Part shown: positions 17,750 to 51,379 of the stretch, in pieces
How the letters are laid out: the number at the start of each line of letters is the position of its first letter
Numbering within the stretch: position 1 is the stretch's first letter
Assembly: GCA_964398865.1 (NCBI GenBank)
Contig: CAYNOO010000001.1
Span: 43,661-107,660 of the forward strand
Direction of reading: 5' to 3'
Origin: an uncultured Candidatus Saccharibacteria bacterium
Lineage (GTDB): Bacteria > Patescibacteriota > Minisyncoccia > Phycocordibacterales > Phycocordibacteraceae
DNA length: 64,000 bases
Translations under genes and position numbers: made by a program
Notes under the pieces: generated by a model
What the model was told of the DNA's origin: nothing
What the model saw: only the letters and a program-made list of their open reading frames with translations
Databases searched by the model: none

Positions 17750-17821
17750 GCTCCCGTCGTTCAATGGATAGGACATATCCTTGCGGAGGATACGATGTGG
17801 GTTCGATTCCTGCCGGGAGCA
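17750..17821 (+). tRNA. tRNA-Arg (GCG anticodon)
   Basis: Manual fold: acceptor GCTCCCG/CGGGAGC, anticodon arm TATCC-TTGCGGA-GGATA. Confidence 0.75.
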
Positions 17822-18007: not shown

Positions 18008-18013
18008 AATACA

Positions 18014-18046
18014 AAAAACTCCAGACAATTGTCTGGAGTTTTTTGA
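18014..18046. terminator. bidirectional rho-independent terminator (tRNA-Arg/element and rpsT)
   Basis: ctccagaca-attg-tctggag stem flanked by an A6 run and a T6 run. Confidence 0.75.
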
Positions 18047-18052
18047 TTTTAA

Positions 18053-18319: not shown

Positions 18320-18396
18320 TGAAAGGTACTTTAGCCTAAAATATCGCTCTCTGCAAATTGCGTCGCCTCTTCATCGACCAGTGTTAGAATAGCTCC

Positions 18397-18969
18397 ATGA
18401 TTGGGTCTTTGGACGGGGCAGTGCGAGGAATCATTCGAGATAGCGTCATTCTTGAAATAAATGGGGTCGGCTACCGCGTTGCGGTACCGATAGCAACTCT
18501 CACGGGCGCGAAAGAAGGAAATAAACTTTTCCTTTGGACGCACCTGGCTGTACGCGAAACTGCCCAAGATCTCTACGGATTTGAGACGCAAAATGAGCTT
18601 TCGTGGTTCGAGCTTCTTCTTACTGTTTCTGGGATCGGACCCAAATCAGCGCTTGGCATCATGAATACTGTCGATGCGAAGTCCTTGGAGCAGGCGATTG
18701 CTAGGAACGATGCGTCCATACTTTCAAAATCATTTGGTATCGGTAAAAAAACAGCAGAAAAGATAGTCCTGGAATTGAGAGAGAAAGTCGGATCCATCGA
18801 AGACAAGGGGGGGGAGAGCGGTTCCGACGGCGATGTGGTGGATGCGCTCGTAGGCTTAGGCTATTCGCTCCGTGAGGCACGAGATGCGGTGCATGCGGTA
18901 TCAAAAGAACTCGTTACGCCCGAGAGTCGACTCCGAGAAGCGATTCGCATTGCATCGCGTTCCCGTTAG
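18397..18969 (+). CDS. ruvA: Holliday junction DNA helicase RuvA
   Basis: MIGSLDG...EINGVGYRVAV... with two HhH motifs (GIGPKSA and GIGKKTA) and a C-terminal domain III. Confidence 0.9.
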   Translation: MIGSLDGAVRGIIRDSVILEINGVGYRVAVPIATLTGAKEGNKLFLWTHLAVRETAQDLYGFETQNELSWFELLLTVSGIGPKSALGIMNTVDAKSLEQAIARNDASILSKSFGIGKKTAEKIVLELREKVGSIEDKGGESGSDGDVVDALVGLGYSLREARDAVHAVSKELVTPESRLREAIRIASRSR

Positions 18970-18974
18970 AACTC

Positions 18975-20261
18975 ATGATGAACGTCCTGAAAAAAACGCT
19001 CCAGAGTATCATCCCGCCTTTCATCTTTTCTCACTTGCTGGCAAGCTATCACTTCATTCTTTCCTGGGGCGCCGCACTCATGTATGGATTTCCTTCCCGG
19101 GGACTCTTCGTTATCGGTGTGACTGGCACGAAAGGAAAATCATCCGTCTCCGAAATGATGAATGCAATTCTTGAAGAAGCTGGATATCGCACCGCACTTG
19201 CAAATACGATCCGTTTCAAAATAGACAAGAATTCGCGAAGAAATCTTTTCAAGATGACCATGCCTGGCAGAGGCTTCTTGCAAAAGTTTTTGCGAGAAGC
19301 CCGTGACGCAGATTGCACGCATGTAGTCCTTGAAATAACCTCTGAAGGTGCTCGGCAATTCAGAAATAATGGGATCGACCTCAACGCTCTTATTTTCACG
19401 AATATCGCTCCCGAACATATCGAGTCACATGGCTCGTATGACGCGTACAAGCGCGCAAAACTTGCTATCGGCATGTCTCTGGTACGCTCACCTAAACGCC
19501 CTCGCACACTAGTAGCGAACGCTGAGGATGAGGTTGGGAAAAAATTCCTTGCGCTTCCCGTGGATCGCGCACTCCCTTTCCGTCTTGAGGATGCGAAGCC
19601 GTATCAAGGTTTAGAAAATAAAATTTCCATGACCTGGAGTGATGTTACTTTTGATGTGCCATTCCCCGGAACGTTTACCATTCTAAACGCGCTCGCAGTC
19701 AGCACGCTCGCTCGTTCGCTTGGCATCAGCGCAGAAGTTGTTGGGCGGGCACTCCAACATATGCAGCCCATCTTGGGGCGAGTGGAGAGAATAGAAGCCG
19801 GTCAAAAGTTCACAGCCGTCGTGGACTATGCGCATACCACTGACTCTCTCATTGCTCTCTACGGCGCTTTCCCGCGCGCGCGAAAAATCTGCGTTCTTGG
19901 AAATACTGGCGGCGGACGGGACACCTGGAAACGCAAGGAAATGGGGGCTATTGCAGACAAGACGTGCGACACGGTGATTCTCACCAACGAAGATCCGTAC
20001 GACGAAGATCCACTGAAAATCGTTGAGGCGATGGCAGAAGGCATGGCTCGACGGCCCCTTATAATCATGGATCGCCGTGAAGCTATTCGGCGAGCACTAA
20101 AGGAAGCGCGAGCGGGAGACGCAGTCTTAATAACTGGAAAAGGAACCGACCCTTACATAATGGGTGCGCGCGGAACAAAAACCCCGTGGTCAGATGCCGA
20201 TGTCGTACGAGAAGAACTCAAAAAACTTTTGCGAGAAAAATCTTTAACTGATGAGAGGTAG
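18975..20261 (+). CDS. Mur ligase family protein (MurE-like)
   Basis: GVTGTKGKSS P-loop and a DYAHTTDSL motif. Confidence 0.65.
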   Translation: MMNVLKKTLQSIIPPFIFSHLLASYHFILSWGAALMYGFPSRGLFVIGVTGTKGKSSVSEMMNAILEEAGYRTALANTIRFKIDKNSRRNLFKMTMPGRGFLQKFLREARDADCTHVVLEITSEGARQFRNNGIDLNALIFTNIAPEHIESHGSYDAYKRAKLAIGMSLVRSPKRPRTLVANAEDEVGKKFLALPVDRALPFRLEDAKPYQGLENKISMTWSDVTFDVPFPGTFTILNALAVSTLARSLGISAEVVGRALQHMQPILGRVERIEAGQKFTAVVDYAHTTDSLIALYGAFPRARKICVLGNTGGGRDTWKRKEMGAIADKTCDTVILTNEDPYDEDPLKIVEAMAEGMARRPLIIMDRREAIRRALKEARAGDAVLITGKGTDPYIMGARGTKTPWSDADVVREELKKLLREKSLTDER

Positions 20262-20267
20262 TACTAT

Positions 20268-21254
20268 GTGATTATGGATGATCCAAAATCAGATCTTCTC
20301 ATCGTCATTCTTCTTTTAATCGCGCTTGGCATTGCGTGGGTATGGACCGGAGGACCAAGCAAACCAATGGCACACCAGGGCGGACTCTTCAGCGCACCAT
20401 GGCCTTTAGGAAAGGGCGGTAATGCATACACGGTGCCGAGCATTCCACTTGGAACAGGCGACGAATCAAATTCGGTAAACGAGGATACTAATCAGAATTC
20501 CAACAATTCGCAGACAAAAACAAGCGTGTTTGACTACTTCTTCGGATACCGCCCAGGCACAGGCTACGTGGCAGACCCGAGCCCCTCTCCCTATGCATCA
20601 TATGTACGCCTCGACAGTGGAAACGCCACGAATGCTGACCCGAAACAGGAGTATGTTTCGATTCGCGTTTCGGGTTCGCTTCAAAGCAGCATCACCATTA
20701 CCGGATGGACACTGCAAAGCAGCACCAACAGCCTCAAAGTCACCATCGGCTCCGCCGCACAGATTCCCGCCTTGGGCGACGTAAACACGAACGCGCCAAT
20801 CACGCTTGGCTCCAATAGCACTGTCTATGTCACCACAGGATTCTCGCCTAACGGAGCATCCTTCCGCACAAACGAATGCACCGGATATTTCGAACAGTTT
20901 CAAGATTTCTCCCCTACGCTCCCAATGGAGTGCCCCCGCCCGCGAGATGAAATGTTTCTTTTTCCTGAAAAGACTGCTGGAAACGCAGAGTGTGAAAATT
21001 TCATCAACTCACTCCGTCAGTGCACACTCACCGTTACAGAAATCCCCGGCAAAATTGGTTCATCATGTCAGGACTTCATTCTGAATAATCTTTCATACAA
21101 CGGGTGCATCTTGAAACATAAGAATGATCCGAATTTCTATCGAGACGAGTGGCGAGTCTTTCTAAATCGCAATCAGGAACTTTGGAGTAACAGCCACGAC
21201 CGAATACTTCTCCTTGATGAGAACGGAAAATTAGTTTCTGCAGTGTCGTATTAG
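20268..21254 (+). CDS. membrane-anchored protein with lamin-tail-domain-like fold and Cys-rich C-terminus
   Basis: N-terminal TM segment. EYVSIRVSGSLQSSITITGWTLQS resembles the LTD signature. Multiple Cys residues in the C-terminal third. Confidence 0.4.
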   Translation: MIMDDPKSDLLIVILLLIALGIAWVWTGGPSKPMAHQGGLFSAPWPLGKGGNAYTVPSIPLGTGDESNSVNEDTNQNSNNSQTKTSVFDYFFGYRPGTGYVADPSPSPYASYVRLDSGNATNADPKQEYVSIRVSGSLQSSITITGWTLQSSTNSLKVTIGSAAQIPALGDVNTNAPITLGSNSTVYVTTGFSPNGASFRTNECTGYFEQFQDFSPTLPMECPRPRDEMFLFPEKTAGNAECENFINSLRQCTLTVTEIPGKIGSSCQDFILNNLSYNGCILKHKNDPNFYRDEWRVFLNRNQELWSNSHDRILLLDENGKLVSAVSY

Positions 21255-21255
21255 A

Positions 21256-21498
21256 CTAGCGGGATTTTTTCTTTAGCTCCCATCCGCGCGGGTCAATATC
21301 AACACGCTTGTCCCCTTTCCCTTTTTCTTTCGGCGTAACAGTCATTAGACCTTTGTAAGGGTGAACCTCAGCAATATAATCGAAGGCACTATCGGGGTGA
21401 ACAACGGTTTTCCCGGTCCTGATTTCCTTAGAGTTCAGATAACCAATGCGTTCAGACCTTTGCCCCCCAAGATGGTCTCGTTTGTATTCCTCTCCCAT
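21256..21498 (-). CDS. small hypothetical protein
   Basis: 80-aa ORF, tightly packed between neighbouring genes. No family recognised. Confidence 0.3.
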   Translation of the reverse strand: MGEEYKRDHLGGQRSERIGYLNSKEIRTGKTVVHPDSAFDYIAEVHPYKGLMTVTPKEKGKGDKRVDIDPRGWELKKKSR

Positions 21499-21524
21499 AG
21501 TCGAGCGATAGTATCCTGCTGAAC

Positions 21525-22022
21525 CTAGCCCGTCAATGATTCAGCTGCCTTGAAAAGAATGATGCCGGCAGCGACAGAAACGTTAAGTGACTCTTTCTCG
21601 CCTCGCATAGGAATTTCCACAACCTCATCACACTGCTTCAGCAGCAGAGGTGACACGCCCAAAACCTCATTCCCGAAGATGACGGCAATGGGAAACTTCG
21701 GTCGCCATTTTGCGTAAGAGATTGCGCGAGGAGATTGCTCCGCCGCCACAATGTCTACTTTACTTTTCTTCAGTTTTTTTATGAGAGCGCTGATATTTTT
21801 ACAGGATTCCCAGGCAACCGAAAGCTCTGCGCCGAGCGCGGTTTTTGCTATTTTCCCGTCAGTGCGCCCGAATCGGTCAAGCGGGGTTGGCGTATAGCCG
21901 GTGAGATAGATTTTGCCTACTCCTGCTGCATCAGCCGTACGAAATATGGCACCCACGTTTTGGGCACTCCGAATGTTATGAAGAATAATAGAAATGGGAG
22001 CGGGCACTTGATTCACAGGCAT
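21525..22022 (-). CDS. SpoU/TrmH-class RNA 2'-O-methyltransferase
   Basis: HNIRSAQNVGAIFRTADAAG...IFGNEVLGV...EIPM matches the SPOUT fold. Confidence 0.75.
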   Translation of the reverse strand: MPVNQVPAPISIILHNIRSAQNVGAIFRTADAAGVGKIYLTGYTPTPLDRFGRTDGKIAKTALGAELSVAWESCKNISALIKKLKKSKVDIVAAEQSPRAISYAKWRPKFPIAVIFGNEVLGVSPLLLKQCDEVVEIPMRGEKESLNVSVAAGIILFKAAESLTG

Positions 22023-22033
22023 ACCGTAACATT

Positions 22034-22417
22034 TTGGGAGCGGTTCCTCTACGTGATACCATTTGGCGAATGGAGAGCCTCTTCCCTTCCCTTTTTACTT
22101 TTAGTTTCTTTGCGCCACTGATACTCCGCGTTGCACTCGCGTTTGTATTTTTTGAAGCAGCCAGAGGCACTTGGAAAGGAGAGAAGAAAGGAAAACTAGC
22201 TTCCTTCACCTCAGGCATTTTAGGTATTGCACTTATGCTCGGGGTATTCACCCAGCTCGCCGCAATTTTAGGAATCGCAAAAATCATCGTGCTTACTTTC
22301 CAGAAGCACGTCCCATCGATATTCCACAAGCGCGCATTCGCACTTCTTGTCGTTGCAATTCTAATTTCCCTGATACTCACTGGTCCCGGCGCAATTGCGA
22401 TTGATTTACCATATTAG
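22034..22417 (+). CDS. DoxX-like membrane protein
   Basis: Small protein of 3-4 TM helices with an LRVALAFVFFEAA-type N-terminus. Confidence 0.45.
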   Translation: MGAVPLRDTIWRMESLFPSLFTFSFFAPLILRVALAFVFFEAARGTWKGEKKGKLASFTSGILGIALMLGVFTQLAAILGIAKIIVLTFQKHVPSIFHKRAFALLVVAILISLILTGPGAIAIDLPY

Positions 22418-22587
22418 TCCGCGCTGGACGAAGTTAGAACCTGTTTGACTTACGCTAACAAACGTAAGTTAGTCCGACATAACTGAGACTAGAGGTTGGA
22501 ACGGTTTTGGCAGTGAACTTTGACGGCTCAGACCCATTCAAGCGAAGTTTGATTCGGGGACTACCTGAATGGTAGTGTGGAAGAACT

Positions 22588-23532
22588 ATGGCAGCCGCAT
22601 TCTCCAGGGAAACACCCTCTGCGCCCAGTTTGACCGGAATGGAAGATTGGAAATGGCAAGAAAGAGACGTCGACCGCTGGTCTCGGGAACAAACGATCAA
22701 GCGCTCCTATCGGGATGAAGTCGTTGGCAAGATCTTAGAGCTCGGCGGGAAATTCGAACTTCATCAATACGGGGCGCTCTCTCAGGATCCGAAGCGCTAC
22801 CCCCTCTATCTTTTAAAATCCCCGAATTTTTCTCCCGCTAAAAAAACGGTCTTGATCACGGGTGGCGTACACGGTTATGAAACCAGTGGCGTTCATGGCG
22901 CGCTCGGATTCCTCGAGGGCGCGGCTTCCCAGTTTGACGGAAAATTTAATTTTGTGTGTGCGCCTTGCATCAGTCCGTGGGCTTACGAGACGGTTAATCG
23001 TTGGAATGCGCGCGCGTTCGACCCGAACCGTTGGTTTCGTGACGGGAGCCCGGTGGAGGAATGCCGGCTTTTCTTGAACGCGATGAAAGAGGTTCGACCC
23101 TTCGCGCATTTTGATCTGCACGAAACGACCGATACAGACAATACCGTTTTCCGACCGGCGAAAGCCGAGCGGGATGGAAAGGCCGAGGAGTGGTCGGAGA
23201 TTCCCGATGGATTTTACGTTGTCGGCGATACCGAGAATCCACAGGCGGATTTTCAGAAAGCTATTATCGAGTCGGTAAGCAAGGTAACTCACATCGCTAA
23301 AGCTGATGAGAATGGGAACATTATCGGAGCCCCGCTCGAGCAAGAGGGAGTGATCAACTATGATGTGAAGAAGCTCATGTTGTGTGCTGGCTTTTCAGAC
23401 GCCGCATATACTATGACCACAGAAGTCTATCCCGATAGCTCCCGGGCTACCGACGAAATCTGCATCAATGCTCAGGTCGCCGCTGTCGCGGGTGGCTTGA
23501 AATATCTTTTGAGCCGGGAAGAAGCCGGTTGA
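22588..23532 (+). CDS. M14 zinc carboxypeptidase-like / succinylglutamate desuccinylase-aspartoacylase family
   Basis: ITGGVHGYETSG and FDLHET zinc-binding motifs. Confidence 0.6.
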   Translation: MAAAFSRETPSAPSLTGMEDWKWQERDVDRWSREQTIKRSYRDEVVGKILELGGKFELHQYGALSQDPKRYPLYLLKSPNFSPAKKTVLITGGVHGYETSGVHGALGFLEGAASQFDGKFNFVCAPCISPWAYETVNRWNARAFDPNRWFRDGSPVEECRLFLNAMKEVRPFAHFDLHETTDTDNTVFRPAKAERDGKAEEWSEIPDGFYVVGDTENPQADFQKAIIESVSKVTHIAKADENGNIIGAPLEQEGVINYDVKKLMLCAGFSDAAYTMTTEVYPDSSRATDEICINAQVAAVAGGLKYLLSREEAG

Positions 23533-23559
23533 TGCGTCCGCGCTTAAGGAAAGAATCAG

Positions 23560-23632
23560 TCCGCCCGCCTGGGCTCGAACCAGGGACCCACTCCTTAAAA
23601 GGGAGTTGCTCTACCAACTGAGCTACGGGCGG
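23560..23632 (-). tRNA. tRNA-Lys (TTT)
   Basis: Manual fold: anticodon arm ACTCC-CTTTTAA-GGAGT, T-arm CCTGG-TTCGAGC-CCAGG. Confidence 0.75.
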
Positions 23633-42917: not shown

Positions 42918-44726
42918 CTATTCCGCTCCCTCTTTTTTCTCGCGAGCTATAGCCAAGAGTTGCGAAGGGTCAGAGGTAATTATCTGATCCTCAGTGTAGG
43001 AGGCGATGATTTTTATAGCTACGTGCTTAAGACCTGCAAAAAAGATGCCCTCCCCTACGTCTGACTCAAGGAGTAGATATTTTTCCTCTTCGGTCAAATT
43101 GAATGTTTTTTGTACGGCTTCTATGGATGTGGGCGACTGCTTTAAAAGAATCTGAATGGAGGAGTTTGTGAGCATTGGCAAGCCATAGGGGGATTTCAGG
43201 AAGTCCTCAACGTCCTGCGTGATGGTAGCGAGCCCGAGATAGTATTTTCTTCCACGCTTCGCCATGCCGTAGAGGAATGCAGCAGTGTCTTCCGACTTCA
43301 TCATCCACCACGCTTCGTCGATCACGAGAAGACGTTTGCGCAGATCTTTCCTGACCGCATTCCATATGAAGTGCGTGATGATGTACATGGCGATGGTCTT
43401 GAGCTCGTCCTCCATGTTACGAACCGAGAACGCTACGAACTTTTTGTTGATGTCGACGTTTGTTGGGCGATTGATGAAACCCGACCATGTGCCTTTGGTG
43501 TACTTTGTTATTCGCTGCACCAAAGACTCGCTTCCCTCCATGCCGGCAAGCACGAGTTCGAAGTCAGACAAAAGAGGCGGCTCCATGTTACTGAAATCAT
43601 TTGCCCCCGTTATGTCTTTCAGTGCGTATGTTTCAGTGATAGCCCTGTCTACGATGGCATCTTCCTCAGGAGTAAGACCACCGAGCATCAAGCGAAATAA
43701 TCCGACGAGGTTGATGATGTTTGAGCGAAGTATGTCAGCGGGCGATTCATCCTCGCGTGGCACCGGCAGGTCGAAAGGATTGATGCGGTTTTCTGATGAG
43801 AGCGATATGTTGAAGAATCTACCACCAACCGCGTTTGCCAGGTACTCGTATTCGCTTTCAGGATCTATAACAATGACTTCTGTGTCGAACATCAGTGACC
43901 GTAAGATTTCGAGCTTCGTGCCATATGATTTTCCGGAACCTGATTTTGCAAAAGTTACTGAGTTATAGTTTTCCAAAGAAAACCTATCAAAGAGAATGAG
44001 AGATGAGTTGTGTCTGTTGATGCCATAGAGAATCCCCTTGTCGCTCGTCAGGTCGAACGATATGAACGGGAAGAAGCTTGAGAGCGGAGCAGAATTCATT
44101 TTTGAGTTAACCGCGAGCTGGTCATCCCCTATCGGTATGACACTCTTGAATCCTTGCTCTTGCTGGAAGAGTGCTGGCTTTATATAGACGAGCTTAGCGT
44201 CCAGGATTGAACGCATTTCCGCCTCCGTCTTATCGAGCTCATCCTGGTTTGTTCCATAAATAGATATATAGAGCCCCACATCAAACACACGCTCTTGTGC
44301 TTGCTGGAGCTGGTTTCTGAGTTGCTCGATGTCTTGGTATGCCGTATCGAGCATCGGGTCGCGCACCATGCCTTTTTCTTGGCGCGTCATGATTTGGCTC
44401 TGCACCTCTGCGACTTTTTTCTGGAACTTCCGCAGGATTGCTGCTGTGTCGACAGGATGAATGAAAATAGAGATGTCCAACACTCTGTCGCGGTTGATGA
44501 TGGGAGCGAACCACGTTCCCGATAAGAAACGTGGGTATGAAATTACATAAAAGGTGCGGACGAGCTTATCACCCAAGTTCATCTCGCGCGGTGTTATTTT
44601 CAACGCTGAGGGCGCAATAATGTCTGCAAAATCAAGCTTCGCCGCTTCGTAAATGTCTTTCGGCAGGAACGGCGTTAGCTCCTGCTTCTTTTTTTCTCCA
44701 CCAGTTAGAAAATCAAGTATTGCCAT
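42918..44726 (-). CDS. virB4: VirB4/TrbE-family type IV secretion ATPase
   Basis: Walker A FAKSGSGKSY, Walker B LLVIDEAWWMM (the DEAW motif typical of VirB4/TraC), VirB4-type N-terminal domain. Confidence 0.8.
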   Translation of the reverse strand: MAILDFLTGGEKKKQELTPFLPKDIYEAAKLDFADIIAPSALKITPREMNLGDKLVRTFYVISYPRFLSGTWFAPIINRDRVLDISIFIHPVDTAAILRKFQKKVAEVQSQIMTRQEKGMVRDPMLDTAYQDIEQLRNQLQQAQERVFDVGLYISIYGTNQDELDKTEAEMRSILDAKLVYIKPALFQQEQGFKSVIPIGDDQLAVNSKMNSAPLSSFFPFISFDLTSDKGILYGINRHNSSLILFDRFSLENYNSVTFAKSGSGKSYGTKLEILRSLMFDTEVIVIDPESEYEYLANAVGGRFFNISLSSENRINPFDLPVPREDESPADILRSNIINLVGLFRLMLGGLTPEEDAIVDRAITETYALKDITGANDFSNMEPPLLSDFELVLAGMEGSESLVQRITKYTKGTWSGFINRPTNVDINKKFVAFSVRNMEDELKTIAMYIITHFIWNAVRKDLRKRLLVIDEAWWMMKSEDTAAFLYGMAKRGRKYYLGLATITQDVEDFLKSPYGLPMLTNSSIQILLKQSPTSIEAVQKTFNLTEEEKYLLLESDVGEGIFFAGLKHVAIKIIASYTEDQIITSDPSQLLAIAREKKEGAE

Positions 44727-44728
44727 AA

Positions 44729-45400
44729 TTATTCAACAGGAGCGGGTTGTTCCATAACGATAGGTTTTTCTAATTCTCCTGGATTGAACTCTCTGTAGAG
44801 AAGCTCTATCACTTCTTCGGTGCCAAGAGGAACCGTCCGTACACCAGTGCGAGCGAGTCCTTGCTCCACTGTTCCCATTCTTTGTTCTAGTTGGGTGCGA
44901 TGTTCTTCGAAACCAATAGTGCTTTCGTCGCGCGACGAGAGATTTGTTTTTCCGAAAATTTTGTTCTGCACCGCTTTCTTTACATCCAGCATCGGCGGCG
45001 AGTACGGAATAACGATGAAAAAATGCTTGCTCATAATATTTGCGCGTTCGATGAACGTCTTTATAAATTCTATATATTCACGCACCTGTATTTTCATTAG
45101 CTCTTCTGTCTGCGCCTTTAGACGTTCATCGAGAAGCGCGATGTAGGGTCGTATATCCAATTTTCTGGACTGCACGAAAAACTGAACGCTAAAATCTAGT
45201 GAATTCATAAAACTCTGGAACTGGGCGAGGATAGCATTCTGCTCGTCCTCGGATTTGAGTGCAAAGTTGATGGATGATGCAAGCATTACCCCTACGAGCG
45301 TGCCGCTTTTCATCACCATCACTCCCCCACGGACTTCTTTCACTGGAACGAAATCCTGCGCCGCCTTTGTTTTTTTTGTCTTCTCATCTCCTCCAGCCAT
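44729..45400 (-). CDS. hypothetical protein with VirB4 N-terminal-domain-like region
   Basis: 223 aa. KEVRGGVMVMKSGTLVGVMLASSINFALKSEDEQNAILAQFQSFMNSL...VQFFVQSRKLD mirrors the pattern at the N-terminus of VirB4 proteins. No NTPase motifs. Confidence 0.3.
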   Translation of the reverse strand: MAGGDEKTKKTKAAQDFVPVKEVRGGVMVMKSGTLVGVMLASSINFALKSEDEQNAILAQFQSFMNSLDFSVQFFVQSRKLDIRPYIALLDERLKAQTEELMKIQVREYIEFIKTFIERANIMSKHFFIVIPYSPPMLDVKKAVQNKIFGKTNLSSRDESTIGFEEHRTQLEQRMGTVEQGLARTGVRTVPLGTEEVIELLYREFNPGELEKPIVMEQPAPVE

Positions 45401-45414
45401 AGATATAGGTTTTA

Positions 45415-45424
45415 GGTGTCAGGT
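45415..45424. repeat. left inverted repeat (aggtgtcagg) flanking the four-helix-bundle gene
   Basis: Perfect reverse complement of 45800-45809. Confidence 0.6.
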
Positions 45425-45790
45425 CCCAGCTTTCAGGGAAGAAAGTAATTTTGAAAGCATCATTCTTATCTCAAGAATTAAACGCCCTGCTTCATTATAG
45501 TCTGCTTTCTGAGCGTAGAAGAGATCCTCGGCAATGATTAACTGGGTATCTAGTTCCGCTAAAGATCCAAGTGCAAAATATAGGAATTGAATAAAATCTT
45601 TCTTGCTTCGTCTACCTCTACCTTCTGCGATATTTGAGGGCACAGAAACCGCGGCTCTTTGCATTTGTGATGCAAGACCATACCATTCTTCCGGAGGAAA
45701 TTTTTTTGATATTCTGTAAATATGTGAAACTAGGGTAATGCTTTTTTGCCAAACAATCAGATCTTTATATGACTTTATGTTCCTATCCAT
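45419..45790 (-). CDS. four-helix-bundle protein (Avd / 23S rRNA intervening-sequence protein family)
   Basis: YKDLIVWQKS...FPPEEWYGLASQMQRAAVSVPSNIAEGRGRRSKKDFIQFLYFALGSLAELDTQL is the hallmark of the PF05635-type four-helix-bundle family. Confidence 0.7.
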   Translation of the reverse strand: MDRNIKSYKDLIVWQKSITLVSHIYRISKKFPPEEWYGLASQMQRAAVSVPSNIAEGRGRRSKKDFIQFLYFALGSLAELDTQLIIAEDLFYAQKADYNEAGRLILEIRMMLSKLLSSLKAGT

Positions 45791-45799
45791 CTTCTTCAA

Positions 45800-45809
45800 C
45801 CTGACACCT
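45800..45809. repeat. right inverted repeat (cctgacacct) flanking the four-helix-bundle gene
   Basis: Perfect reverse complement of 45415-45424. Additional partial repeats (ctttcagg at 45430-45437 and cctgaaag at 45807-45814). Confidence 0.6.
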
Positions 45810-45828
45810 GAAAGCGGAAACCTGAAAC

Positions 45829-46266
45829 CTATTGTTGCTTTTTATCCGAATACACACTCTCTTTGATGTCTAAACTCCACGCTAAGTCTTTTATTTTGTT
45901 TGCTGTTGCTGACGGGACGTACTTTGCCGGATCTTCAGCTTGCGTTTGCCCAGGGAGCATAATTTCTTCAGGGAGCACGGTTTTTGATTGTTTCTTTTCC
46001 CAGATGTAGAGTTTGGTGCGAAAAAGATACTGAAAGCCGGACTCAAGGGCGTTAACAAGCGGTCGATCGTTAATTTTATAGAACGCAAGAGCTGCGCCTA
46101 AAAGTGCGACAGGTCCGCCAATAAGTACCGCAATCCAGTGTGGTGCTATAAGCCATAAAGCAACCAAAAACCCGCCTCCTCCAACCAAGTACACGAATTG
46201 CACTGCAGTGAGAGGACCAAAAATTTTATCTTCAACCTCGACAAATTGCGGTACTTGAAATTGCAT
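45829..46266 (-). CDS. PrgI-family (VirB3-like) T4SS membrane protein
   Basis: MQFQVPQFVEVEDKIFGPLTAVQFVYL N-terminus followed by two TM helices, as in PrgI/VirB3-like proteins of Gram-positive T4SSs. Confidence 0.45.
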   Translation of the reverse strand: MQFQVPQFVEVEDKIFGPLTAVQFVYLVGGGGFLVALWLIAPHWIAVLIGGPVALLGAALAFYKINDRPLVNALESGFQYLFRTKLYIWEKKQSKTVLPEEIMLPGQTQAEDPAKYVPSATANKIKDLAWSLDIKESVYSDKKQQ

Positions 46267-46268: not shown

Positions 46269-47060
46269 TTATTCAACAGGTTCTCGATAGGGATCAACCC
46301 CTCCTTTATATGCGGGTTTTGAAGGCGGGGGTGTTGTAGATAGTTGTTTTGACTCGACCTCTGCCGTTTCAGGCTGGATTTCTACGGTAGGGTTGGAAGT
46401 AGTTTGTGTTTGAGATGGTACACCGAGTTTTTGCTCCACTATGCTCGGGATAGTCTGATCTCCTAGGACAGTAGAATCGGATGCTTCCTCTATGTCCACG
46501 TCGTCTTCGTCGGTTTCTGGGATAATCGGGTCCTTTTTCGCTTGTTCCAATGCGAATGCCAACTCCTTCTTGTTTTCCTCGTCCCTCTTTGCGGCTTCCG
46601 CTCGATCCTTTTCGTATTCTGCCAACAATCTCGGATCATCATCTGGCATATTTTCTATCTCTTTGCGTCTTACCTCCTCGGCGCGCTCTTCTTCCGAGAG
46701 TTCCGGCTCCGAGGGCTTTTCGGTCCATACGCTCGGCTCGGGTATATTTTCCTTGACGCGACGAGACGCTTCCTTGAAGACACGATCATTGATATCGGCA
46801 ACGAGTTCCCGCGCCCCCTGATTGGATAGTTCATGCATCGCTTGGTGCAAGTTTGTTTCGAGCGCAGACTCGCTTTCAAGACCCAACAAAGTCAGGTTTG
46901 CGATCTCGGTGAAGAGAAGCAGTTGTCGTAAGTTCAGAGCATGTTTTTTCTGTATGCCGATATAGATATTCGTCAGCGACGTGGAACCTAAAAAATCATA
47001 AAGCGGCTTCGGCAACTTCTTTTTTGCTTCCTCTCTTTCTCCCTGCGTGTGCGATTTCAT
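46269..47060 (-). CDS. acidic hypothetical protein of T4SS-like cluster
   Basis: 263 aa, highly charged and disordered central/C-terminal region. No family recognised. Confidence 0.4.
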   Translation of the reverse strand: MKSHTQGEREEAKKKLPKPLYDFLGSTSLTNIYIGIQKKHALNLRQLLLFTEIANLTLLGLESESALETNLHQAMHELSNQGARELVADINDRVFKEASRRVKENIPEPSVWTEKPSEPELSEEERAEEVRRKEIENMPDDDPRLLAEYEKDRAEAAKRDEENKKELAFALEQAKKDPIIPETDEDDVDIEEASDSTVLGDQTIPSIVEQKLGVPSQTQTTSNPTVEIQPETAEVESKQLSTTPPPSKPAYKGGVDPYREPVE

Positions 47061-47074: not shown

Positions 47075-50000
47075 TTAAACTGGATTTTCCCATGACCTTA
47101 CCATGCGCGCTATGTCCCCTGTCAGTTTCCCGCGCCTATCAAGCTCTTTGAAGCCGGCGATTATGCTTCGTCTCATATCAGCGTTGCTGCCGTACCTCTC
47201 GAGTATTTTCAATACTGTTGAAGGTCTTTTTATTCCCGGGAGTGCCAGCGTGATGATTCTTGGCGGCAGCGTCACTATCTGATCGTCAGTCCAATCGCTC
47301 ATATATGACTCGGCTTTTCGTATCTGCTCTTCTGAGTAAGGGACGTTTCGGTCAAAACTGTTGAAGTAATCTTCAGGAGAGAGAGTAGGTTCGGGAGCCG
47401 CTTGCGTTGGGGCCGCTTGCGTCGTCACGGTGGGGGCTTCGGCTACAGGGGCTTCATCTGTGGGGGCGACTGAATAGTCATTGCTGCTGCTGCCCGGGTC
47501 AATCGGAACACCGCCTCTATTTCGTTCTGCCGCTTCCGCCTCTGCAATATCTGCCGCCTGCCTCTCGGTGAAGGTGGTATCCGTATCCACACCACCGTCT
47601 TCAAACGGTTCCGGTGCGGAGAAATCTGAGGGCGGGACGAACCCAGGAACGTTTACTGGCTCTGGGGCGCTTGGTGTCGGTCCCCGTGGACCGCCGCCGC
47701 CTGGTGTGAAGGTCGGACCCCCTCCGCCCCCGGGACCTCTCCCTGTAGGTGGTTCAGGGGTTTCTCCGCCGAAGCTTGCGGTGATTGCCTCTTCCGAGAA
47801 GACTTCAGGTAATGGGGCTTTGTTCATCGCCTGACGCCACAAGTTAATGCGTCGGATACGCTCGGGGGTTGGCCAACCGAAAATGCTTTTCATATGTTCA
47901 TTGCCAGCGTAGTTGGCGATCATCGAATCATCTCCGCGAGTAAGGAGTTGGGCAAAGAATTCCTGCCTCTCGGCGATGTCTTGTCCCTCGAGCGATTGCA
48001 GCTGATCGGCGTCGACGCCGATCGGGGTGTTCGTCGACCACCATGTTCGGTTGTTGAATATCGCCTTGATTTCGCGCGGATTTTTTCCTCGGTAGTAACC
48101 GCGGGTAGCTTCCTCGGTTTGGACGAATCTGTGTATCGCGAAGTTCGCAGGGTCTTGGAGAAACGCTTCTCTTGTTGCGGGGTCATCTAGCGTACCGTTT
48201 CGCTGAGCCTCAAGGTATCTGTTTTTCGCCTCCGTCATCACCTGTAATCTCTTTGCATCCCGCAGCTCCTCTCTCTTTATGCCTTTCGCTTCGTATTCTC
48301 GGTACTCCGCTTCGTTGATGTTCGCAATCCTCCTATCCACTTCGCTTTGGAGGGGATTAAAACCCTCCTTCTGTGCGGCTATCACCATTTTGGCGTAGCG
48401 CTGATTACTTTCCGCGAGTCTCAAGTCACTTTGGCTTACGGAATTCGGATCAAACCTCGCTTTATTTATTAGTCTCTGCGTTTTACCGTTTTCGTTAAGT
48501 GTTTCTTCCGCCCACTTCACGGCTCTTTCTGCTCCGTGATAGTTGACTGTGCCATCCTCATATGGGAGGTGGTCTCTACTTTGCAAGCCAAACAACATAT
48601 AAGCACCTGCTTGCTGGTCGCGCACCCTATCGAGCGGTCTTCTTTTTTCAGAGCCGAAGTCACGCTGCTCTGTCGTTGGAAGAAGTTTTTTATCTTTGAT
48701 GTCTGCGAATACACTGCTCGAGAATACTTGAGGAAATACCGCTAGCTTACGCAGATCTTGGAATCTTTCTCCGGTCGACTCATCAAAGACAGCATCTGAA
48801 AGCAAGAGATCTTGCATCTCGTCACTCGTCGGGATGTTTTTCTTTTGGTCGTTGAATAGGGCGAGCGTGTTTGCACCATATACTTCTCCCCCCTCCAAGA
48901 ATTCACCACTATCCACGTTTCTTTGGATATTTCTGACATTTTGAGCCCACACACCGTAACGAGACTTGATCATCGCGTTCTTTATGTCGCGTCTGATTTT
49001 GGGATCCTTTCTAACTTCCAACCATTGGCTGTTAGGAAGGATTTTAGCAAGCTTGATTATTGATTTCGGATCTTTGTCGTATTCTCGTTCCCAGAATCCA
49101 GAGGAAATGCTTGCATAGATTGCTTCTGCATCGGTACGACTCTTTCTGTAAGAATTTTTACCATCCAGTTTTGCAGCGTCCATCCTTTCGTGGTATGCCC
49201 ATTTGTCTTCCCCTGCGCCCTCATCAGGGTTAGCATTCTCGAGGTCCGTTAGTCGCCCTCTTTCTTTAGCGGTAAGCGTGCCAGCAAGCCCTTTTGCTTT
49301 GAGGTCGTCTAGCTCGCCTTTGAATAGATGTTTCCTGCCAAGTTCCCCCCGCGACTCTTGCCTGTCCCAGAACTCACTCCATGTCTCAAGACGACCTTCT
49401 CTGTTGACCTTCCCTTCAGTGTTTAACTTCTCAAGATTCTGCAATTCAGCTTTCTCGTGCGCCAGGAGAGCCCCACTTTTCGCTTTGGTGCGTAGTTCCT
49501 CTAATCGGTCCTGACCAATCCTCAGTCGTTCGTTTCCGGCCGCGTATTCGGCGGAAAATGCGTTTTCCATGCGATCCATTTTTCCAAGAGCGCCACCTTC
49601 TCGCTTGCGTTCATCCAACTCTTCCATCTTTTTTTTCTCATCTACCGTAAGTTTTTTCCCAAGTTCCGCGAGTCGCGCAACTTCTCTCGCGGTGAGAGTC
49701 TTTGGGTCTTTTTTCCGAAGTTCATCTAGTTCGTTTTGTTCCGCAGCCGTAAGGATTCCTGCCCCCGCTTTCTTCTTAAGCGCTTTGTACAGCTTCTTTT
49801 CGTCGCGCGTCCAGGTTCCGTTTAGTTCCGCTCTTTGTTTCTCATCTTTTTCCACTTCGCCCAATTCGACTTCACGAGCTTTTCGTTTCTCCTTTACGGA
49901 ACCGTAATCATCGAAACCAAAGAACTTCTGACCTTTTGCTTGGGCCAGCCGTTCTTGCGCCCATCTGTCGCCCGCCCGCAACATTGCTCCTAAAACAGGG

Positions 50001-51379
50001 GTCTTGTTTTGGTCAAAACGATTTCGCGCTGCCCATTCTCTGTATCGAGGGGCCAACCAGTCCGCGGTGCCTCCTATAGCCTGCCGTGCTGCAATCGCCC
50101 CAGTGAATTTCAATCCTGTCGTATACGCTTTCGGCATCCAGCCTGTGAGTTGGTTGGATGCCTTGTATATGTCGGCGAACTGTTTTGCTCGCTCACTCAA
50201 GTCTTTTGCTACTTTAAGCGACTGCAACATGAATATTGCGGCGACAATGAAGGTAAGCATCAATCCGATGATACTTTCGGCGCTCGCTGTTGCGCTAAAG
50301 ATTGCGTCTTTTGAGCTTCGTATGATGGTGAAAGAAAAACCCACAAGAAGAAAATAGACAGGGGCAAAAAATGCCTGGCTGAAAAGCGCCTCCCACCACT
50401 CTTTTGCATACTTGCTTGTGGTGGGAAGCATAAAAGCGACTATGCCAACAGGCGACGTAATAAGAACCAAGATAAGCGCAACAAATCGACCAACTAAAAG
50501 AGAGATTGCAGATAAGAAGATGAAAATGGTGACTAATTCAAATATCAAAAGCAGAATGTCGAACACCAGTTTGTTCAACATTCCGTCATTGCTTACCACC
50601 TTCACCCCTTCTGAGGTCGCGCTGATTGATGTCCAGTTGTTCATCAGAGTGCCTTCGTTGTCTCGGAGTCCTTGGATGTTTACGAGTCCCATGAAGGTGC
50701 TCGCGAGGTTACATTTATTGTTATCCGCGCAATCTTTATCTGCTGAAATGACACTCTGGTAGATTTTGGTAGCGAGAAAATTGGAAGAATCTATGACTGC
50801 GCCAGCGAAGAAGTAGCTGAAATTTACTAAAATTGCACCAATAATGAGCTTCGCCAGTACGTTCTTAGCGTTTACATTCTTGAGGTGAAGAATGGTGCCG
50901 ATGGCTATAGCAACGAGCCCACCGATGATGGCGATGTTCGCAAGGTCGCGCATTATTCCCCAAGCGGTGCGAACTCCTTGCGCTGATGAGGATGTCACGT
51001 AGCGTCCCATTTGCACGACCATTTGGTCTATCACAAAGTTGAAAAATGAACCCAAGATCGCTAGGAAAAAAGTGACTATGCGGATTAGTATTTCAAAGAT
51101 AAACGCAATGACATTCAGAATGGTGTTTCCTAGTGCTCCGAGAACTGCATCTATTGCCATGCTCCCGATTTGTCCTTGGTTCTCGTTGTATGTCTGCGCT
51201 GCCTCTGCGTTCGCTGCCGCCATCTCTGGGGCCACTGTTGCAAGACCGCCTGGTGATCCTTGGTCCCCCCCAGTATTATCAAGAGCAAAAGCCGCTCCCG
51301 TAGGTACCATTACCCCCGCGAGTGCAACGAGTATAGAGAGGATAACGAAAACTTTTCTCATGCTTAATATTGCTGACAC
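47075..51379 (-). CDS. giant VirB6-like polytopic membrane protein with ~1000-aa hydrophilic extension
   Basis: 1434 aa. Signal peptide, then about 430 aa with multiple TM helices (VirB6/TrbL/ConG-like). A charged repeat-containing domain follows (LTAAEQNELDELRKKD, LTAREVARLAELGKK and LTAKERGRLTDLEN repeats). Near the C-terminus there is a Gly/Pro-rich stretch. Confidence 0.5.
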   Translation of the reverse strand: MSAILSMRKVFVILSILVALAGVMVPTGAAFALDNTGGDQGSPGGLATVAPEMAAANAEAAQTYNENQGQIGSMAIDAVLGALGNTILNVIAFIFEILIRIVTFFLAILGSFFNFVIDQMVVQMGRYVTSSSAQGVRTAWGIMRDLANIAIIGGLVAIAIGTILHLKNVNAKNVLAKLIIGAILVNFSYFFAGAVIDSSNFLATKIYQSVISADKDCADNNKCNLASTFMGLVNIQGLRDNEGTLMNNWTSISATSEGVKVVSNDGMLNKLVFDILLLIFELVTIFIFLSAISLLVGRFVALILVLITSPVGIVAFMLPTTSKYAKEWWEALFSQAFFAPVYFLLVGFSFTIIRSSKDAIFSATASAESIIGLMLTFIVAAIFMLQSLKVAKDLSERAKQFADIYKASNQLTGWMPKAYTTGLKFTGAIAARQAIGGTADWLAPRYREWAARNRFDQNKTPVLGAMLRAGDRWAQERLAQAKGQKFFGFDDYGSVKEKRKAREVELGEVEKDEKQRAELNGTWTRDEKKLYKALKKKAGAGILTAAEQNELDELRKKDPKTLTAREVARLAELGKKLTVDEKKKMEELDERKREGGALGKMDRMENAFSAEYAAGNERLRIGQDRLEELRTKAKSGALLAHEKAELQNLEKLNTEGKVNREGRLETWSEFWDRQESRGELGRKHLFKGELDDLKAKGLAGTLTAKERGRLTDLENANPDEGAGEDKWAYHERMDAAKLDGKNSYRKSRTDAEAIYASISSGFWEREYDKDPKSIIKLAKILPNSQWLEVRKDPKIRRDIKNAMIKSRYGVWAQNVRNIQRNVDSGEFLEGGEVYGANTLALFNDQKKNIPTSDEMQDLLLSDAVFDESTGERFQDLRKLAVFPQVFSSSVFADIKDKKLLPTTEQRDFGSEKRRPLDRVRDQQAGAYMLFGLQSRDHLPYEDGTVNYHGAERAVKWAEETLNENGKTQRLINKARFDPNSVSQSDLRLAESNQRYAKMVIAAQKEGFNPLQSEVDRRIANINEAEYREYEAKGIKREELRDAKRLQVMTEAKNRYLEAQRNGTLDDPATREAFLQDPANFAIHRFVQTEEATRGYYRGKNPREIKAIFNNRTWWSTNTPIGVDADQLQSLEGQDIAERQEFFAQLLTRGDDSMIANYAGNEHMKSIFGWPTPERIRRINLWRQAMNKAPLPEVFSEEAITASFGGETPEPPTGRGPGGGGGPTFTPGGGGPRGPTPSAPEPVNVPGFVPPSDFSAPEPFEDGGVDTDTTFTERQAADIAEAEAAERNRGGVPIDPGSSSNDYSVAPTDEAPVAEAPTVTTQAAPTQAAPEPTLSPEDYFNSFDRNVPYSEEQIRKAESYMSDWTDDQIVTLPPRIITLALPGIKRPSTVLKILERYGSNADMRRSIIAGFKELDRRGKLTGDIARMVRSWENPV

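What the first reader, a model, noticed from the sequence alone, without database searches (positions are those of the whole stretch)
45404..45829. Avd/23S-IVS-family four-helix-bundle gene as a compact inverted-repeat-flanked cassette inside the T4SS-like operon
Seen directly: the 124-aa four-helix-bundle ORF (45419-45790) is bracketed by a perfect 10-bp inverted repeat (aggtgtcagg at 45415-45424 and cctgacacct at 45800-45809) plus further partial repeats (ctttcagg and cctgaaag). The left repeat overlaps the stop codon. Established knowledge: this protein family is named for ORFs carried in 23S rRNA intervening sequences, which are flanked by inverted repeats and excised by RNase III. Avd of diversity-generating retroelements belongs to the same family. 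Inference: here the cassette sits between a PrgI-like gene and a VirB4-associated gene. That suggests an IVS-like mobile or processed cassette that has colonised an mRNA rather than rRNA, or a stem that serves as an operon-internal RNase III site. No reverse transcriptase or template/variable repeat pair is present, so a complete DGR is unlikely.
Basis: partly seen in the sequence, partly recalled or inferred. Interest (0 to 1): 0.6.

Follow-up and report, generated by a model that had tools for sequence, protein, structure and literature searches.

The report
Hairpin-flanked IVS-type gene cassette in operon
A small four-helix-bundle gene wrapped in inverted arrays of 7-base repeats, the module known from intervening sequences of 23S rRNA, sits here exactly between two genes of a secretion operon, and comparison with about 190 related loci indicates it belongs to a widespread, evolutionarily mobile cassette family that mostly lives between protein-coding genes.

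Summary
A 123-aa PF05635/TIGR02436 gene (45419-45790, minus strand) is bracketed by inverted repeats. These are not just a 10-mer. Each arm is four tandem heptamers (5' arm GGTTTCA GGTTTCC GCTTTCA GGTGTCA), giving a roughly 23-bp terminal stem that fills both intergenic spacers.

In 77 related Patescibacteria species with the same operon, 61 have an empty PrgI|TraC-like slot. Others carry unrelated cassette lineages, or ORF-less hairpins built from the same kind of repeats, in this slot and two neighbouring ones.

Across 91 non-redundant family members, 79% have matching inverted flanks, against 3% of other ORFs. The repeat period is 7 or 8. The unit sequence differs from cassette to cassette, but complementarity is kept. 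None of 80 metagenomic relatives lies in rRNA.

The anatomy matches the Coxiella 23S IVS: a 28-bp stem, tandem heptamers before the ATG, and RNase III cleavage.

Best reading: a promoterless, evolutionarily mobile IVS-type cassette whose arms close it off as a stem-loop in the operon transcript. RNase III processing and the mobility mechanism remain inferred. A wobble-pair strand test gave no RNA-specific signal.

I found no description of this cassette architecture outside rRNA in the searched literature.

The parts
45419..45790 (-). IVP gene: 123-aa four-helix-bundle protein (23S rRNA intervening-sequence protein family), ATG 45790, TGA 45419-45421
   Evidence: PF05635 E=1.4e-39. TIGR02436 and NF008911 match above their cutoffs. 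PDB 2GSC E=1.6e-25. dN/dS against orthologs is 0.05-0.28.
45800..45832 (-). 5' arm (mRNA sense). Four tandem heptamers: GGTTTCA (45829-45823), GGTTTCC (45822-45816), GCTTTCA (45815-45809), GGTGTCA (45808-45802), then GG. The outer end overlaps the PrgI-like stop codon TAG (45829-45831). The inner end lies 9 nt before the IVP ATG.
   Evidence: Inverted repeats I1/I2/I4. TRF finds period 7, 4.7 copies at 45798-45830. Lag-7 autocorrelation is 0.58.
45405..45437 (-). 3' arm. The reverse-complement heptamer array (CTGAAAG CTGGGAC CTGACAC CTAAAAC CTAT) covers the last 5-6 codons and the TGA stop of the IVP gene. It ends 4 nt before the ATG of the TraC-like gene (45398-45400).
   Evidence: pairs with the 5' arm in both the MFE and the centroid fold. 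(17-bp conserved long-range stem with 3 compensatory pairs in 5 orthologs).
45791..45799 (-). Purine-rich spacer UUGAAGAAG immediately 5' of the AUG, a possible weak Shine-Dalgarno sequence. In the predicted fold it pairs with CUUUCUUC near the 3' end of the ORF (about 45437-45447), extending the stem over the start site.
   Evidence: MFE structure. This extension is not conserved in the same form in orthologs.
45829..46266 (-). Upstream operon gene, PrgI-like (145 aa). Its stop codon abuts the base of the stem.
   Evidence: PF12666 E=4.2e-08.
44729..45400 (-). Downstream operon gene, TraC-like / VirB4 N-terminal-domain-like (223 aa). Its start codon lies 4 nt from the base of the stem.
   Evidence: PF26593 TraC-like in orthologs. 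NF041427 TrsD and NF045975 partial matches.
42918..44726 (-). VirB4-type ATPase (602 aa). The TraC|VirB4 junction (44726-44729) is an empty slot here. In L002/L003 it is occupied by another IVP cassette.
   Evidence: PF19044 E=1e-21..

Best explanation
The feature is one member of a widespread class of compact, promoterless cassettes. Each consists of a PF05635/TIGR02436 four-helix-bundle gene flanked by two inverted arrays of 3-5 tandem heptamers (sometimes octamers). This is the same module that forms the ORF-bearing intervening sequences of 23S rRNA.

Here the cassette has been inserted exactly into the few-nucleotide spacer between the stop codon of the PrgI-like gene and the start codon of the TraC-like (VirB4-N) gene. 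It is transcribed as part of that operon.

Shown:
- It is an insertion relative to most related species.
- Cassettes of this type have entered this and neighbouring spacers repeatedly.
- They leave ORF-less hairpin derivatives.
- The protein is under purifying selection.
- Arm complementarity is maintained while arm sequence changes completely between lineages.

Inferred:
- In the operon transcript the arms pair into a roughly 23-28-bp stem that closes the 430-nt insert off as a stem-loop.
- This brings the PrgI stop and the TraC start back to within a few nucleotides of each other, so that translational coupling and operon function survive.
- The stem partly occludes the cassette's own start site.
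- It creates a long dsRNA that RNase III probably cuts, as it does in the rRNA-borne elements.

How the cassette moves is unknown.
For: Anatomy in the window.

Synteny:
- The closest relatives L001, L002/3 and L004 carry a 76-80% identical IVP in the same slot with near-identical arms.
- 61 of 77 related species have a PrgI|TraC spacer of 60 nt or less.
- L002/L003 carry three cassettes in three spacers of the operon, each with its own arm sequence.

Discordant phylogeny:
- L005 and L165 have TraC and PrgI dN of 0.05-0.07 to the window. L005's TraC-like protein is 92% identical to the window's.
- Yet their slot-B IVP is only 55-56% identical to the window's IVP. L005's nearest relative outside that pair is the slot-A cassette of L021 (62%).
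- At least four cassette lineages occupy slot B.

ORF-less derivatives:
- ORF-less heptamer hairpins occur in slots B and C.
- Two copies in L069 are 86/96 identical.

Family-wide statistics:
- Flank inverted-repeat score is 12 or more in 79% of 91 cassettes, against 3% of 946 other ORFs and 8.5% of mismatched partners. Mann-Whitney p=7e-42.
- Mean duplex energy is -37.0 against about -21 kcal/mol for control genes.
- The best period is 7 in 57/91 and 8 in 21/91 of 5' arms.
- The same pattern appears in a cyanobacterium, Chloracidobacterium and viral contigs.

No promoter-like or terminator-like site flanks the cassette. All IVP genes in the operon loci are co-oriented with the operon.

Purifying selection on the protein: dN/dS 0.05-0.28.

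Published anatomy of the Coxiella 23S IVS (PMC4990558): an S23p ORF of this family, a 28-bp terminal stem, 3-4 tandem heptamers just 5' of the ATG, and RNase III cutting mid-stem.
Against: - No direct evidence for RNA-level function. Mismatches in the arms that would be G:U in the sense transcript (65) are no more frequent than those that would be G:U in the antisense (82), p=0.19.
- Sense and antisense duplex energies are equal.
- The whole-transcript fold is not more stable than shuffles (z=-0.85). Only the terminal stem stands out.
- In some relatives on viral contigs, a promoter-like TAnnTTTG motif lies between the 5' arm and the ATG. The cassette's own mRNA would then lack the 5' arm.
- Neighbour co-orientation in the metagenome set (82-84%) is no higher than baseline (79%).
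- No target-site duplication, no excised form, and no recognisable recombinase were found, so mobility rests on comparative inference only.
- Only one copy exists in the 64-kb window.
Confidence: 0.6

Rival explanations
1. The arms act on DNA, not RNA. They are terminal inverted repeats, or hairpin/cruciform-forming ends, of a transposon-like element. It would be moved by the IVP protein itself or by a host or trans-acting enzyme. The RNA stem would be a by-product.
For: - There is no sense-strand G:U bias in the arms.
- ORF-less derivatives behave like MITEs, with two 90% identical copies in two spacers of one operon.
- The 3' arm of the L056 slot-C remnant is 31/34 identical to that of the slot-B cassette in the same genome.
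- Within the window lineage the 5' arm is 33/33 identical between the window and L001, although dS in the ORF is about 1.
- Some cassettes appear to have an internal promoter inside the arms.
- Published hypotheses of a transposition origin or ORF-mediated mobility exist (PMC4990558).
Against: - No target-site duplication is visible at filled versus empty junctions.
- The arm sequence differs completely between lineages while the most conserved protein motifs are invariant.
- The protein is a small helical bundle with no match to any transposase or recombinase family.
- The cassette is single-copy in this window.
- In rRNA the homologous stem is demonstrably an RNA substrate.
Confidence: 0.25
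2. It is an ordinary, vertically inherited accessory gene of the T4SS-like operon, with a regulatory hairpin (for mRNA stability or translational control). It is not a mobile cassette.
For: - The gene is conserved at the same slot in L001, L004 and L002/L003, with dN/dS below 0.3.
- It is co-oriented and tightly packed with the operon genes.
Against: - It is absent from 61 of 77 related species at this slot.
- Different, distantly related IVP lineages occupy the same slot in close host relatives.
- Identical architecture occurs in unrelated operons: histidine kinase | response regulator, and SNF2 | MmeI-like R-M.
- ORF-less remnants exist.
Confidence: 0.08
3. It is a remnant of a diversity-generating retroelement: an orphan Avd.
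For: Weak similarity to bAvd (PF22296, 23 bits; NF033474, 27 bits).
Against: - Both scores are far below their cutoffs (40 and 80).
- The neighbours on both sides are T4SS-like genes, in the window and in all relatives.
- No template/variable repeat pair was found in the repeat scan of 45300-45900.
Confidence: 0.02
4. The inverted repeat is a chance match.
For: The 10-mer alone is not enriched in the window.
Against: The extended arms, their exact placement, their conservation in orthologs and the family-wide statistics all argue against chance.
Confidence: 0.01

Closest known systems
ORF-bearing intervening sequences of 23S rRNA (Coxiella burnetii helix-45 IVS with S23p; Leptospira IVS)
   Same: Same protein family in the loop. 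Terminal inverted repeats form a stem of about 23-28 bp. There are 3-4 tandem heptamers immediately 5' of the ATG. The size is about 430-445 nt, and the Shine-Dalgarno sequence is weak or occluded (PMC4990558; window).
   Different: The host RNA is a polycistronic mRNA, in the spacer between two T4SS-like genes, not 23S rRNA. RNase III excision is not demonstrated here. The protein here is under purifying selection, whereas the Coxiella ORF is reported as decaying.
ORF-less 23S rRNA IVSs (Salmonella/Yersinia/Campylobacter type)
   Same: These are short extended stem-loops without an ORF. The ORF-less heptamer hairpins in L018, L042, L059, L063, L069 and L081 (slot B) and in L056, L061, L064 and L069 (slot C) look like the operon counterpart.
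   Different: They are located in mRNA spacers. Homology to rRNA IVSs was not tested.
MITEs / small non-autonomous inverted-repeat elements
   Same: They have inverted termini, ORF-less derivatives, and duplicated copies within a genome (L069).
   Different: No target-site duplication was seen. The arms are tandem heptamer arrays that differ between elements. There is no partner transposase. The copy number is low.
Cyanobacterial STRR heptanucleotide repeats and Beggiatoaceae TAACTGA intergenic direct repeats
   Same: Both are tandem 7-nt units in short intergenic spacers, often ending just upstream of a start codon (PMC4679880). The arm units in cyanobacterial cassettes (GTGGTTA, GTGGGGA) resemble STRR-type units; this resemblance is from my own recall and was not tested.
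   Different: Those repeats are described as direct arrays of one genome-wide unit. They have not been linked to an enclosed four-helix-bundle gene or to an inverted partner array.
DGR accessory protein Avd
   Same: Same superfamily fold (four-helix bundle; pentamer in 2GSC and bAvd by published structures).
   Different: The score is below the Avd family cutoffs. There is no RT and no TR/VR.

Membership tests
PF05635 / TIGR02436 four-helix-bundle (23S rRNA IVS protein) family | Profile match above the curated cutoff over the full length | tested here: met
   PF05635 135 bits (cutoff 33.8), residues 9-113 against profile 1-105/106. TIGR02436 127.8 bits (cutoff 24). NF008911 142.8 bits (cutoff 137).
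PF05635 / TIGR02436 four-helix-bundle (23S rRNA IVS protein) family | Four-helix-bundle fold forming a homopentamer | not tested
   Sequence homology only, to the solved pentameric structure 2GSC (E=1.6e-25, 5 chains). No structure was predicted.
23S rRNA intervening sequence (IVS) element | Inserted within a 23S rRNA helix (helix 9, 25 or 45) | tested here: not met
   The cassette lies between two protein-coding genes. Rfam finds only 7 tRNAs in the window. 0 of 80 metagenomic relatives are in rRNA.
23S rRNA intervening sequence (IVS) element | Complementary termini forming a long stem (about 20-30 bp) that encloses the element | tested here: met
   Arms of 25 nt at 84% and 33 nt at 76% complementarity. 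A 23-bp stem appears in both the MFE and the centroid fold. Duplex energy is -41.8 kcal/mol, z=-5.8.
23S rRNA intervening sequence (IVS) element | Tandem heptameric repeats 5' of the ORF start (as in Coxiella) | tested here: met
   Four heptamers at 45802-45829. TRF finds period 7, 4.7 copies. Compare PMC4990558.
23S rRNA intervening sequence (IVS) element | Excision from the host RNA by RNase III | not testable with these tools
   Requires RNA-seq, RACE or an in vitro cleavage assay.
DGR Avd | Match to the Avd equivalog model above the cutoff | tested here: not met
   NF033474 27.2 bits against a cutoff of 80. PF22296 23.1 bits against 40.
DGR Avd | Adjacent reverse transcriptase and template/variable repeat pair | tested here: not met
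   The flanking genes are PrgI-like and TraC-like/VirB4, here and in relatives. The repeat scan of 45300-45900 shows only the arms. The whole window was not scanned for RT domains.
TIR transposon / MITE | Target-site duplication flanking the inverted termini | tested here: inconclusive
   Filled versus empty junctions show insertion between the stop codon and the ATG with no evident duplication. However, the closest empty sites are about 25% diverged.
TIR transposon / MITE | Multiple near-identical copies in a genome | tested here: inconclusive
   There is a single copy in the 64-kb window. The three cassettes in L002 are only 30-57% identical to the window's IVP, and each has a different arm sequence. 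An ORF-less derivative is present twice in L069 at 86/96 identity.
Integron gene cassette | A single 3' attC site and association with an integron integrase | tested here: not met
   The repeats bracket the ORF on both sides and pair with each other across it. No integrase lies in the operon.

The most novel reading that the evidence does not exclude
PF05635 'four-helix-bundle' genes with their inverted heptamer arrays constitute a previously unrecognised, very widespread class of mobile element that carries no recognisable transposase. In this reading the pentameric IVP protein specifically recognises its own 4-5 tandem heptamers and promotes copying of the cassette into the tiny spacers of tightly packed operons and into rRNA helices. 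By analogy with its relative Avd, it might do so by recruiting a reverse transcriptase to the stem-closed RNA. The stem insulates the host transcript from the insert. This would explain the origin of rRNA IVSs. It might also account for the unexplained heptanucleotide repeat families of cyanobacteria and Beggiatoaceae.
Probability: 0.15. Interest if true: 0.9.

Novelty: new variant of a known kind. Interest (0 to 1): 0.72.

Why it matters
The family has thousands of members annotated only as 'four helix bundle protein' or, wrongly, as 'S23 ribosomal protein'. The origin and mobility of rRNA intervening sequences have been open questions since the early 1990s.

If the gene-plus-inverted-heptamer module is a general cassette that mainly lives between protein-coding genes, three things follow:
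- rRNA IVSs become a special case of a broader element.
- The family gets a testable functional context, either protein-arm recognition or RNA stem processing.
- Annotators gain a simple signature for recognising insertions, and their ORF-less scars, inside operons.

It also offers a natural example of how a 430-nt insert can sit in a spacer of a few nucleotides (2-20 nt in the empty junctions examined) without destroying the operon.

Tried and rejected
- **RNA versus DNA strand test.** I counted G:U-compatible mismatches and compared sense with antisense duplex energies. There was no asymmetry, so the test is uninformative. Register ambiguity in tandem arms makes most mismatches transversions.
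- **Whole-cassette fold z-score.** Not significant. Only the terminal stem is informative.
- **Orientation bias relative to neighbours in the metagenome set.** Not above the baseline.
- **Promoter and terminator scan.** Nothing flanks the cassette.
- **Other copies of the gene or arms in the window.** None found.
- **rRNA-borne relatives for direct comparison.** None among 80 loci.
- **PADLOC and INPHARED phages.** No hits.
- **Nostoc PCC 7120 plasmid copies.** The 3' heptamers are present, but the 5' side is disrupted by IS elements, so this is not a clean example.
- **Literature searches.** No paper in the searched library describes these cassettes outside rRNA. Subscription-only papers such as Ralph & McClelland 1993 could not be read.
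- **A corrected reading.** I first read the arm difference between L005 and the window as compensatory change. One search shows L005 carries a different cassette lineage, so I withdrew that reading.
Full report
**1. What is in the window**

The region lies in a minus-strand gene string:
- a 1434-aa protein (47075-51379)
- a 263-aa protein (46269-47060)
- a PrgI-like protein (45829-46266; PF12666)
- the gene in question (45419-45790)
- a 223-aa TraC-like/TrsD-like protein that resembles the N-terminal domain of VirB4 (44729-45400)
- a VirB4-type ATPase (42918-44726; PF19044)

The gene encodes 123 aa. It matches PF05635 (E=1.4e-39), TIGR02436 and NF008911 above their cutoffs. It falls far below the cutoffs of the DGR Avd models. 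Its closest solved homolog is the pentameric Xanthomonas protein 2GSC.

No promoter-like or terminator-like site flanks the gene. It is therefore presumably co-transcribed with the operon.

**2. The repeat**

Alone it is not significant. The real structure is larger.

Read on the mRNA strand, the 33 nt between the PrgI stop codon and the IVP start are four tandem heptamers (GGTTTCA GGTTTCC GCTTTCA GGTGTCA) plus GG. TRF finds period 7 and 4.7 copies.

The last codons of the IVP gene, its TGA and the following 14 nt form the reverse-complement array (CTGAAAG CTGGGAC CTGACAC CTAAAAC CTAT).

The outer end of the 5' arm overlaps the PrgI TAG. The outer end of the 3' arm lies 4 nt from the TraC-like ATG.

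Several alternative pairing registers exist: 25 nt at 84%, 33 nt at 76%, and 15 nt at 93%.

The 445-nt transcript folds with a 23-bp terminal stem in both the MFE and the centroid structure. An extension covers the purine-rich stretch and the AUG of the IVP gene.

Duplex energy of the flanks is -41.8 kcal/mol, z=-5.8.

**3. Relatives with the same operon**

The closest IVP proteins (76-81% identity by the measures: L001, L002/L003, L004) lie in the same PrgI|TraC slot and carry the same kind of arms. RNAalifold on five cassettes occupying this slot recovers a 17-bp long-range stem with three compensatory pairs. One of the five, L005, belongs to a different cassette lineage.

L002/L003 carry three IVP genes in three successive spacers of the operon. 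Each has a different arm sequence.

A scan of one genome per species returned 80 Patescibacteria loci with the operon. Occupancy of the three spacers is as follows.

| Slot | Empty (spacer 60 nt or less) | IVP cassette | ORF-less heptamer hairpin | Other content |
|---|---|---|---|---|
| B (PrgI\|TraC), 77 evaluable | 61 | 3 | 6 | 7 |
| A (upstream of PrgI) | not counted | 13 species, intact or fragmentary | not counted | not counted |
| C (TraC\|VirB4), 83 evaluable | 66 (under 60 nt) | L002/L003 only | 6 | remainder |

All IVP genes are co-oriented with the operon.

**4. Evidence that these are insertions with turnover**

The IVP tree conflicts with the host genes. L005 and L165 are among the closest hosts, with TraC and PrgI dN of 0.05-0.07 to the window. 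Their slot-B IVP is nevertheless only 55-56% identical to the window's. L005's nearest relative outside that pair is the slot-A cassette of another species, L021, at 62%.

L027_B and L056_B are 29% and 15% identical to the window protein. L056_B is closest to the slot-A cassette of L081. At least four cassette lineages have therefore occupied slot B.

In L069, the ORF-less elements in slots B and C are 86/96 identical, loop included. In L056, the slot-C remnant shares 31/34 nt with the 3' arm of the slot-B cassette.

Filled and empty junctions show that the insert lies between the stop codon and the ATG. No target duplication is visible, but the nearest empty sites are too diverged to be sure.

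IVP dN/dS is 0.05-0.28 where dS is measurable, so the protein is maintained by selection.

**5. The architecture is family-wide**

A metagenome scan with an IVP alignment gave 80 diverse loci. Together with the operon cassettes this makes 91 non-redundant cassettes.

| Measure | IVP cassettes | Control |
|---|---|---|
| Median flank inverted-repeat score | 17.5 | 7 (946 other ORFs of 150 aa or more; also 7 for 400 mismatched 5'/3' partners) |
| Fraction with score 12 or more | 79% | 3% (other ORFs), 8.5% (mismatched partners) |
| Mean duplex energy, kcal/mol (19 operon cassettes) | -37.0 | -19.8 to -21.8 (PrgI, TraC, VirB4, p323) |
| Lag-7 autocorrelation of arms (5' / 3') | 0.47 / 0.44 | 0.29 (shuffled) |
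| All three reading frames closed by stops within 40 nt (5' / 3') | 46% / 37% | 18% / 11% (shuffled) |

The difference in inverted-repeat score has Mann-Whitney p=7e-42.

The best period is 7 in 57 and 8 in 21 of 91 5' arms.

The unit sequence differs almost everywhere (GGTCAGT, GCTAGTG, GTGACGA, TTAGCTT, GGGACAA and others). The 3' flank is nevertheless the reverse complement of the 5' flank.

The 5' arm ends a median of 8 nt before the ATG. Half of the 3' arms begin inside the ORF. Spacers to the neighbouring genes have medians of 52 and 36 nt, which is essentially just the arms.

Contexts are unrelated to each other: histidine kinase | sigma-54 response regulator in Chloracidobacterium, SNF2 | MmeI-like enzyme in a cyanobacterium, and others.

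None of the 80 metagenome loci contains rRNA.

Cassettes with arms also occur on predicted viral contigs, where 69% have a score of 12 or more. IVP-gene homologs also occur on cyanobacterial plasmids. The two plasmid copies inspected keep the 3' heptamers but show no matching 5' arm (inverted-repeat score 8), the upstream side carrying IS/transposase genes. None was found in INPHARED phages.

**6. Comparison with what is known**

The Coxiella 23S IVS is a 428-nt element in helix 45 that encodes a protein of this family. Its termini form a 28-bp stem. Three to four tandem heptamers (GACAGAT) precede the ATG. RNase III cuts mid-stem and removes the Shine-Dalgarno sequence. Its origin and mobility are unresolved (PMC4990558).

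The window cassette shares every anatomical feature except the defining one, location in 23S rRNA. It is therefore not an rRNA IVS. It is the same kind of module in an mRNA.

Intergenic heptamer direct repeats of unknown function are described in Beggiatoaceae and cyanobacteria, but they have not been linked to this gene family (PMC4679880). My searches found no paper describing the cassette architecture outside rRNA. The library lacks many subscription papers, so prior description cannot be excluded.

**7. Mechanism**

Shown: the cassette is an insertion, it has recurred, the protein is selected, and arm complementarity is maintained under complete sequence turnover.

Inferred: in the operon transcript the arms pair and loop out the 430-nt insert. 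This returns the PrgI stop and the TraC start to within a few nucleotides of each other. In empty loci they are 0-30 nt apart. A ribosome terminating at the PrgI stop would melt the base of the stem and expose the TraC start, which would preserve coupling.

The long dsRNA is a plausible RNase III substrate, as in rRNA.

The evidence does not discriminate RNA-level from DNA-level function of the arms. There is no G:U strand bias. ORF-less copies spread like MITEs. Some cassettes seem to carry a promoter inside the arms.

The fact that arms stay internally repetitive while changing sequence implies homogenisation by slippage or template switching, or a requirement for periodicity. I cannot explain that requirement. 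One speculative fit is recognition of 4-5 repeats by a pentameric protein.

**8. Verdict**

The thing is a new variant of a known kind: an IVS-type cassette in operon spacers, with evidence that this is the common habitat of the family.

Interest is fairly high. It gives a concrete, testable context to a very large uncharacterised family and to the old question of where rRNA intervening sequences come from.

Noticed in passing
L059:4861-4968, L018:4760-4986, L042:1973-2084, L063:3286-3431, L069:4866-4986, L081:4823-4977 (PrgI|TraC spacers): These are ORF-less hairpins of about 100-230 nt whose two arms are inverted arrays of tandem 7-8-nt units. An example is CAGAGAC x3 against CTGTTNN x4 in L059. 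They look like ORF-deleted derivatives of IVP cassettes and are the operon counterpart of ORF-less rRNA IVSs.
   Followed up: partly
L069:4864-4991 and L069:5628-5737: Two ORF-less mini-elements sit in two different spacers of the same operon. They are 86/96 identical, including the loop and the bases up to the downstream ATG. This indicates duplicative spread of a non-autonomous derivative.
   Followed up: yes
L005:2523-4107: The spacer upstream of PrgI holds a 1.5-kb insert with two paralogous small ORFs (183 and 149 aa). It also contains a duplicated copy of the 3' end of the upstream gene plus a 5'-arm-like heptamer array (about 3300-3343). It ends in a 3' arm homologous to the ORF-less remnant in L001 (2540-2690). 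This may be different cargo sitting between IVS-type arms.
   Followed up: no
L185, L187, L188, L192, L193, L196 (viral contigs), 20-45 nt upstream of the IVP ATG: A TAnnTTTG motif (tatctttgcg, taactttgtg, taattttgcg) lies between the 5' arm and the start codon. From my own knowledge this resembles the Bacteroidota -7 promoter element. These cassettes may therefore carry their own promoter inside the arms.
   Followed up: no
window 44729-45400 and 42918-44726: VirB4 appears split into a separate N-terminal-domain-like gene (223 aa; TraC-like, TrsD-like) and an ATPase gene (602 aa). They are separated by 2 nt. In L002/L003 an IVP cassette sits in exactly this junction.
   Followed up: partly
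family-wide (91 cassettes); window 45800-45832 and 45405-45437: The period is 7 or 8, not a multiple of 3, and many units contain TAG, TAA or TGA. As a result the arms close all three reading frames far more often than shuffled arms do (46% against 18% at the 5' arm; 37% against 11% at the 3' arm). Whether this is selected or a by-product is unknown.
   Followed up: partly
L026:4756-4989: A long, nearly perfect inverted repeat (about 45-nt arms, not heptamer-based) occupies the PrgI|TraC spacer. It is a different kind of hairpin insert in the same slot.
   Followed up: no
L003:245-1070: A nucleotidyltransferase/HepT-like (MNT-HEPN type) gene pair lies just upstream of the operon segment that carries three IVP cassettes.
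   Followed up: no
L204 and L205 (Nostoc sp. PCC 7120 plasmids gamma and alpha): Identical IVP proteins (WP_010994075.1) occur on two plasmids, with CTTCTGC/CCTCTGC heptamers after the stop codon. IS/transposase genes lie upstream on both: an ISL3 transposase ends 78 nt before the ATG on gamma, and a transposase gene lies about 550 nt upstream on alpha. Plasmid hits of this family are concentrated in Nostoc, Calothrix and Anabaena. From my own recall, not from any paper read here, these are the genera in which STRR heptamer repeats were first described.
   Followed up: partly
window 6351-23632: Seven tRNA genes (His, Leu, Val, Arg x2, Ser, Lys) are scattered singly. There is no rRNA in the window.
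   Followed up: no
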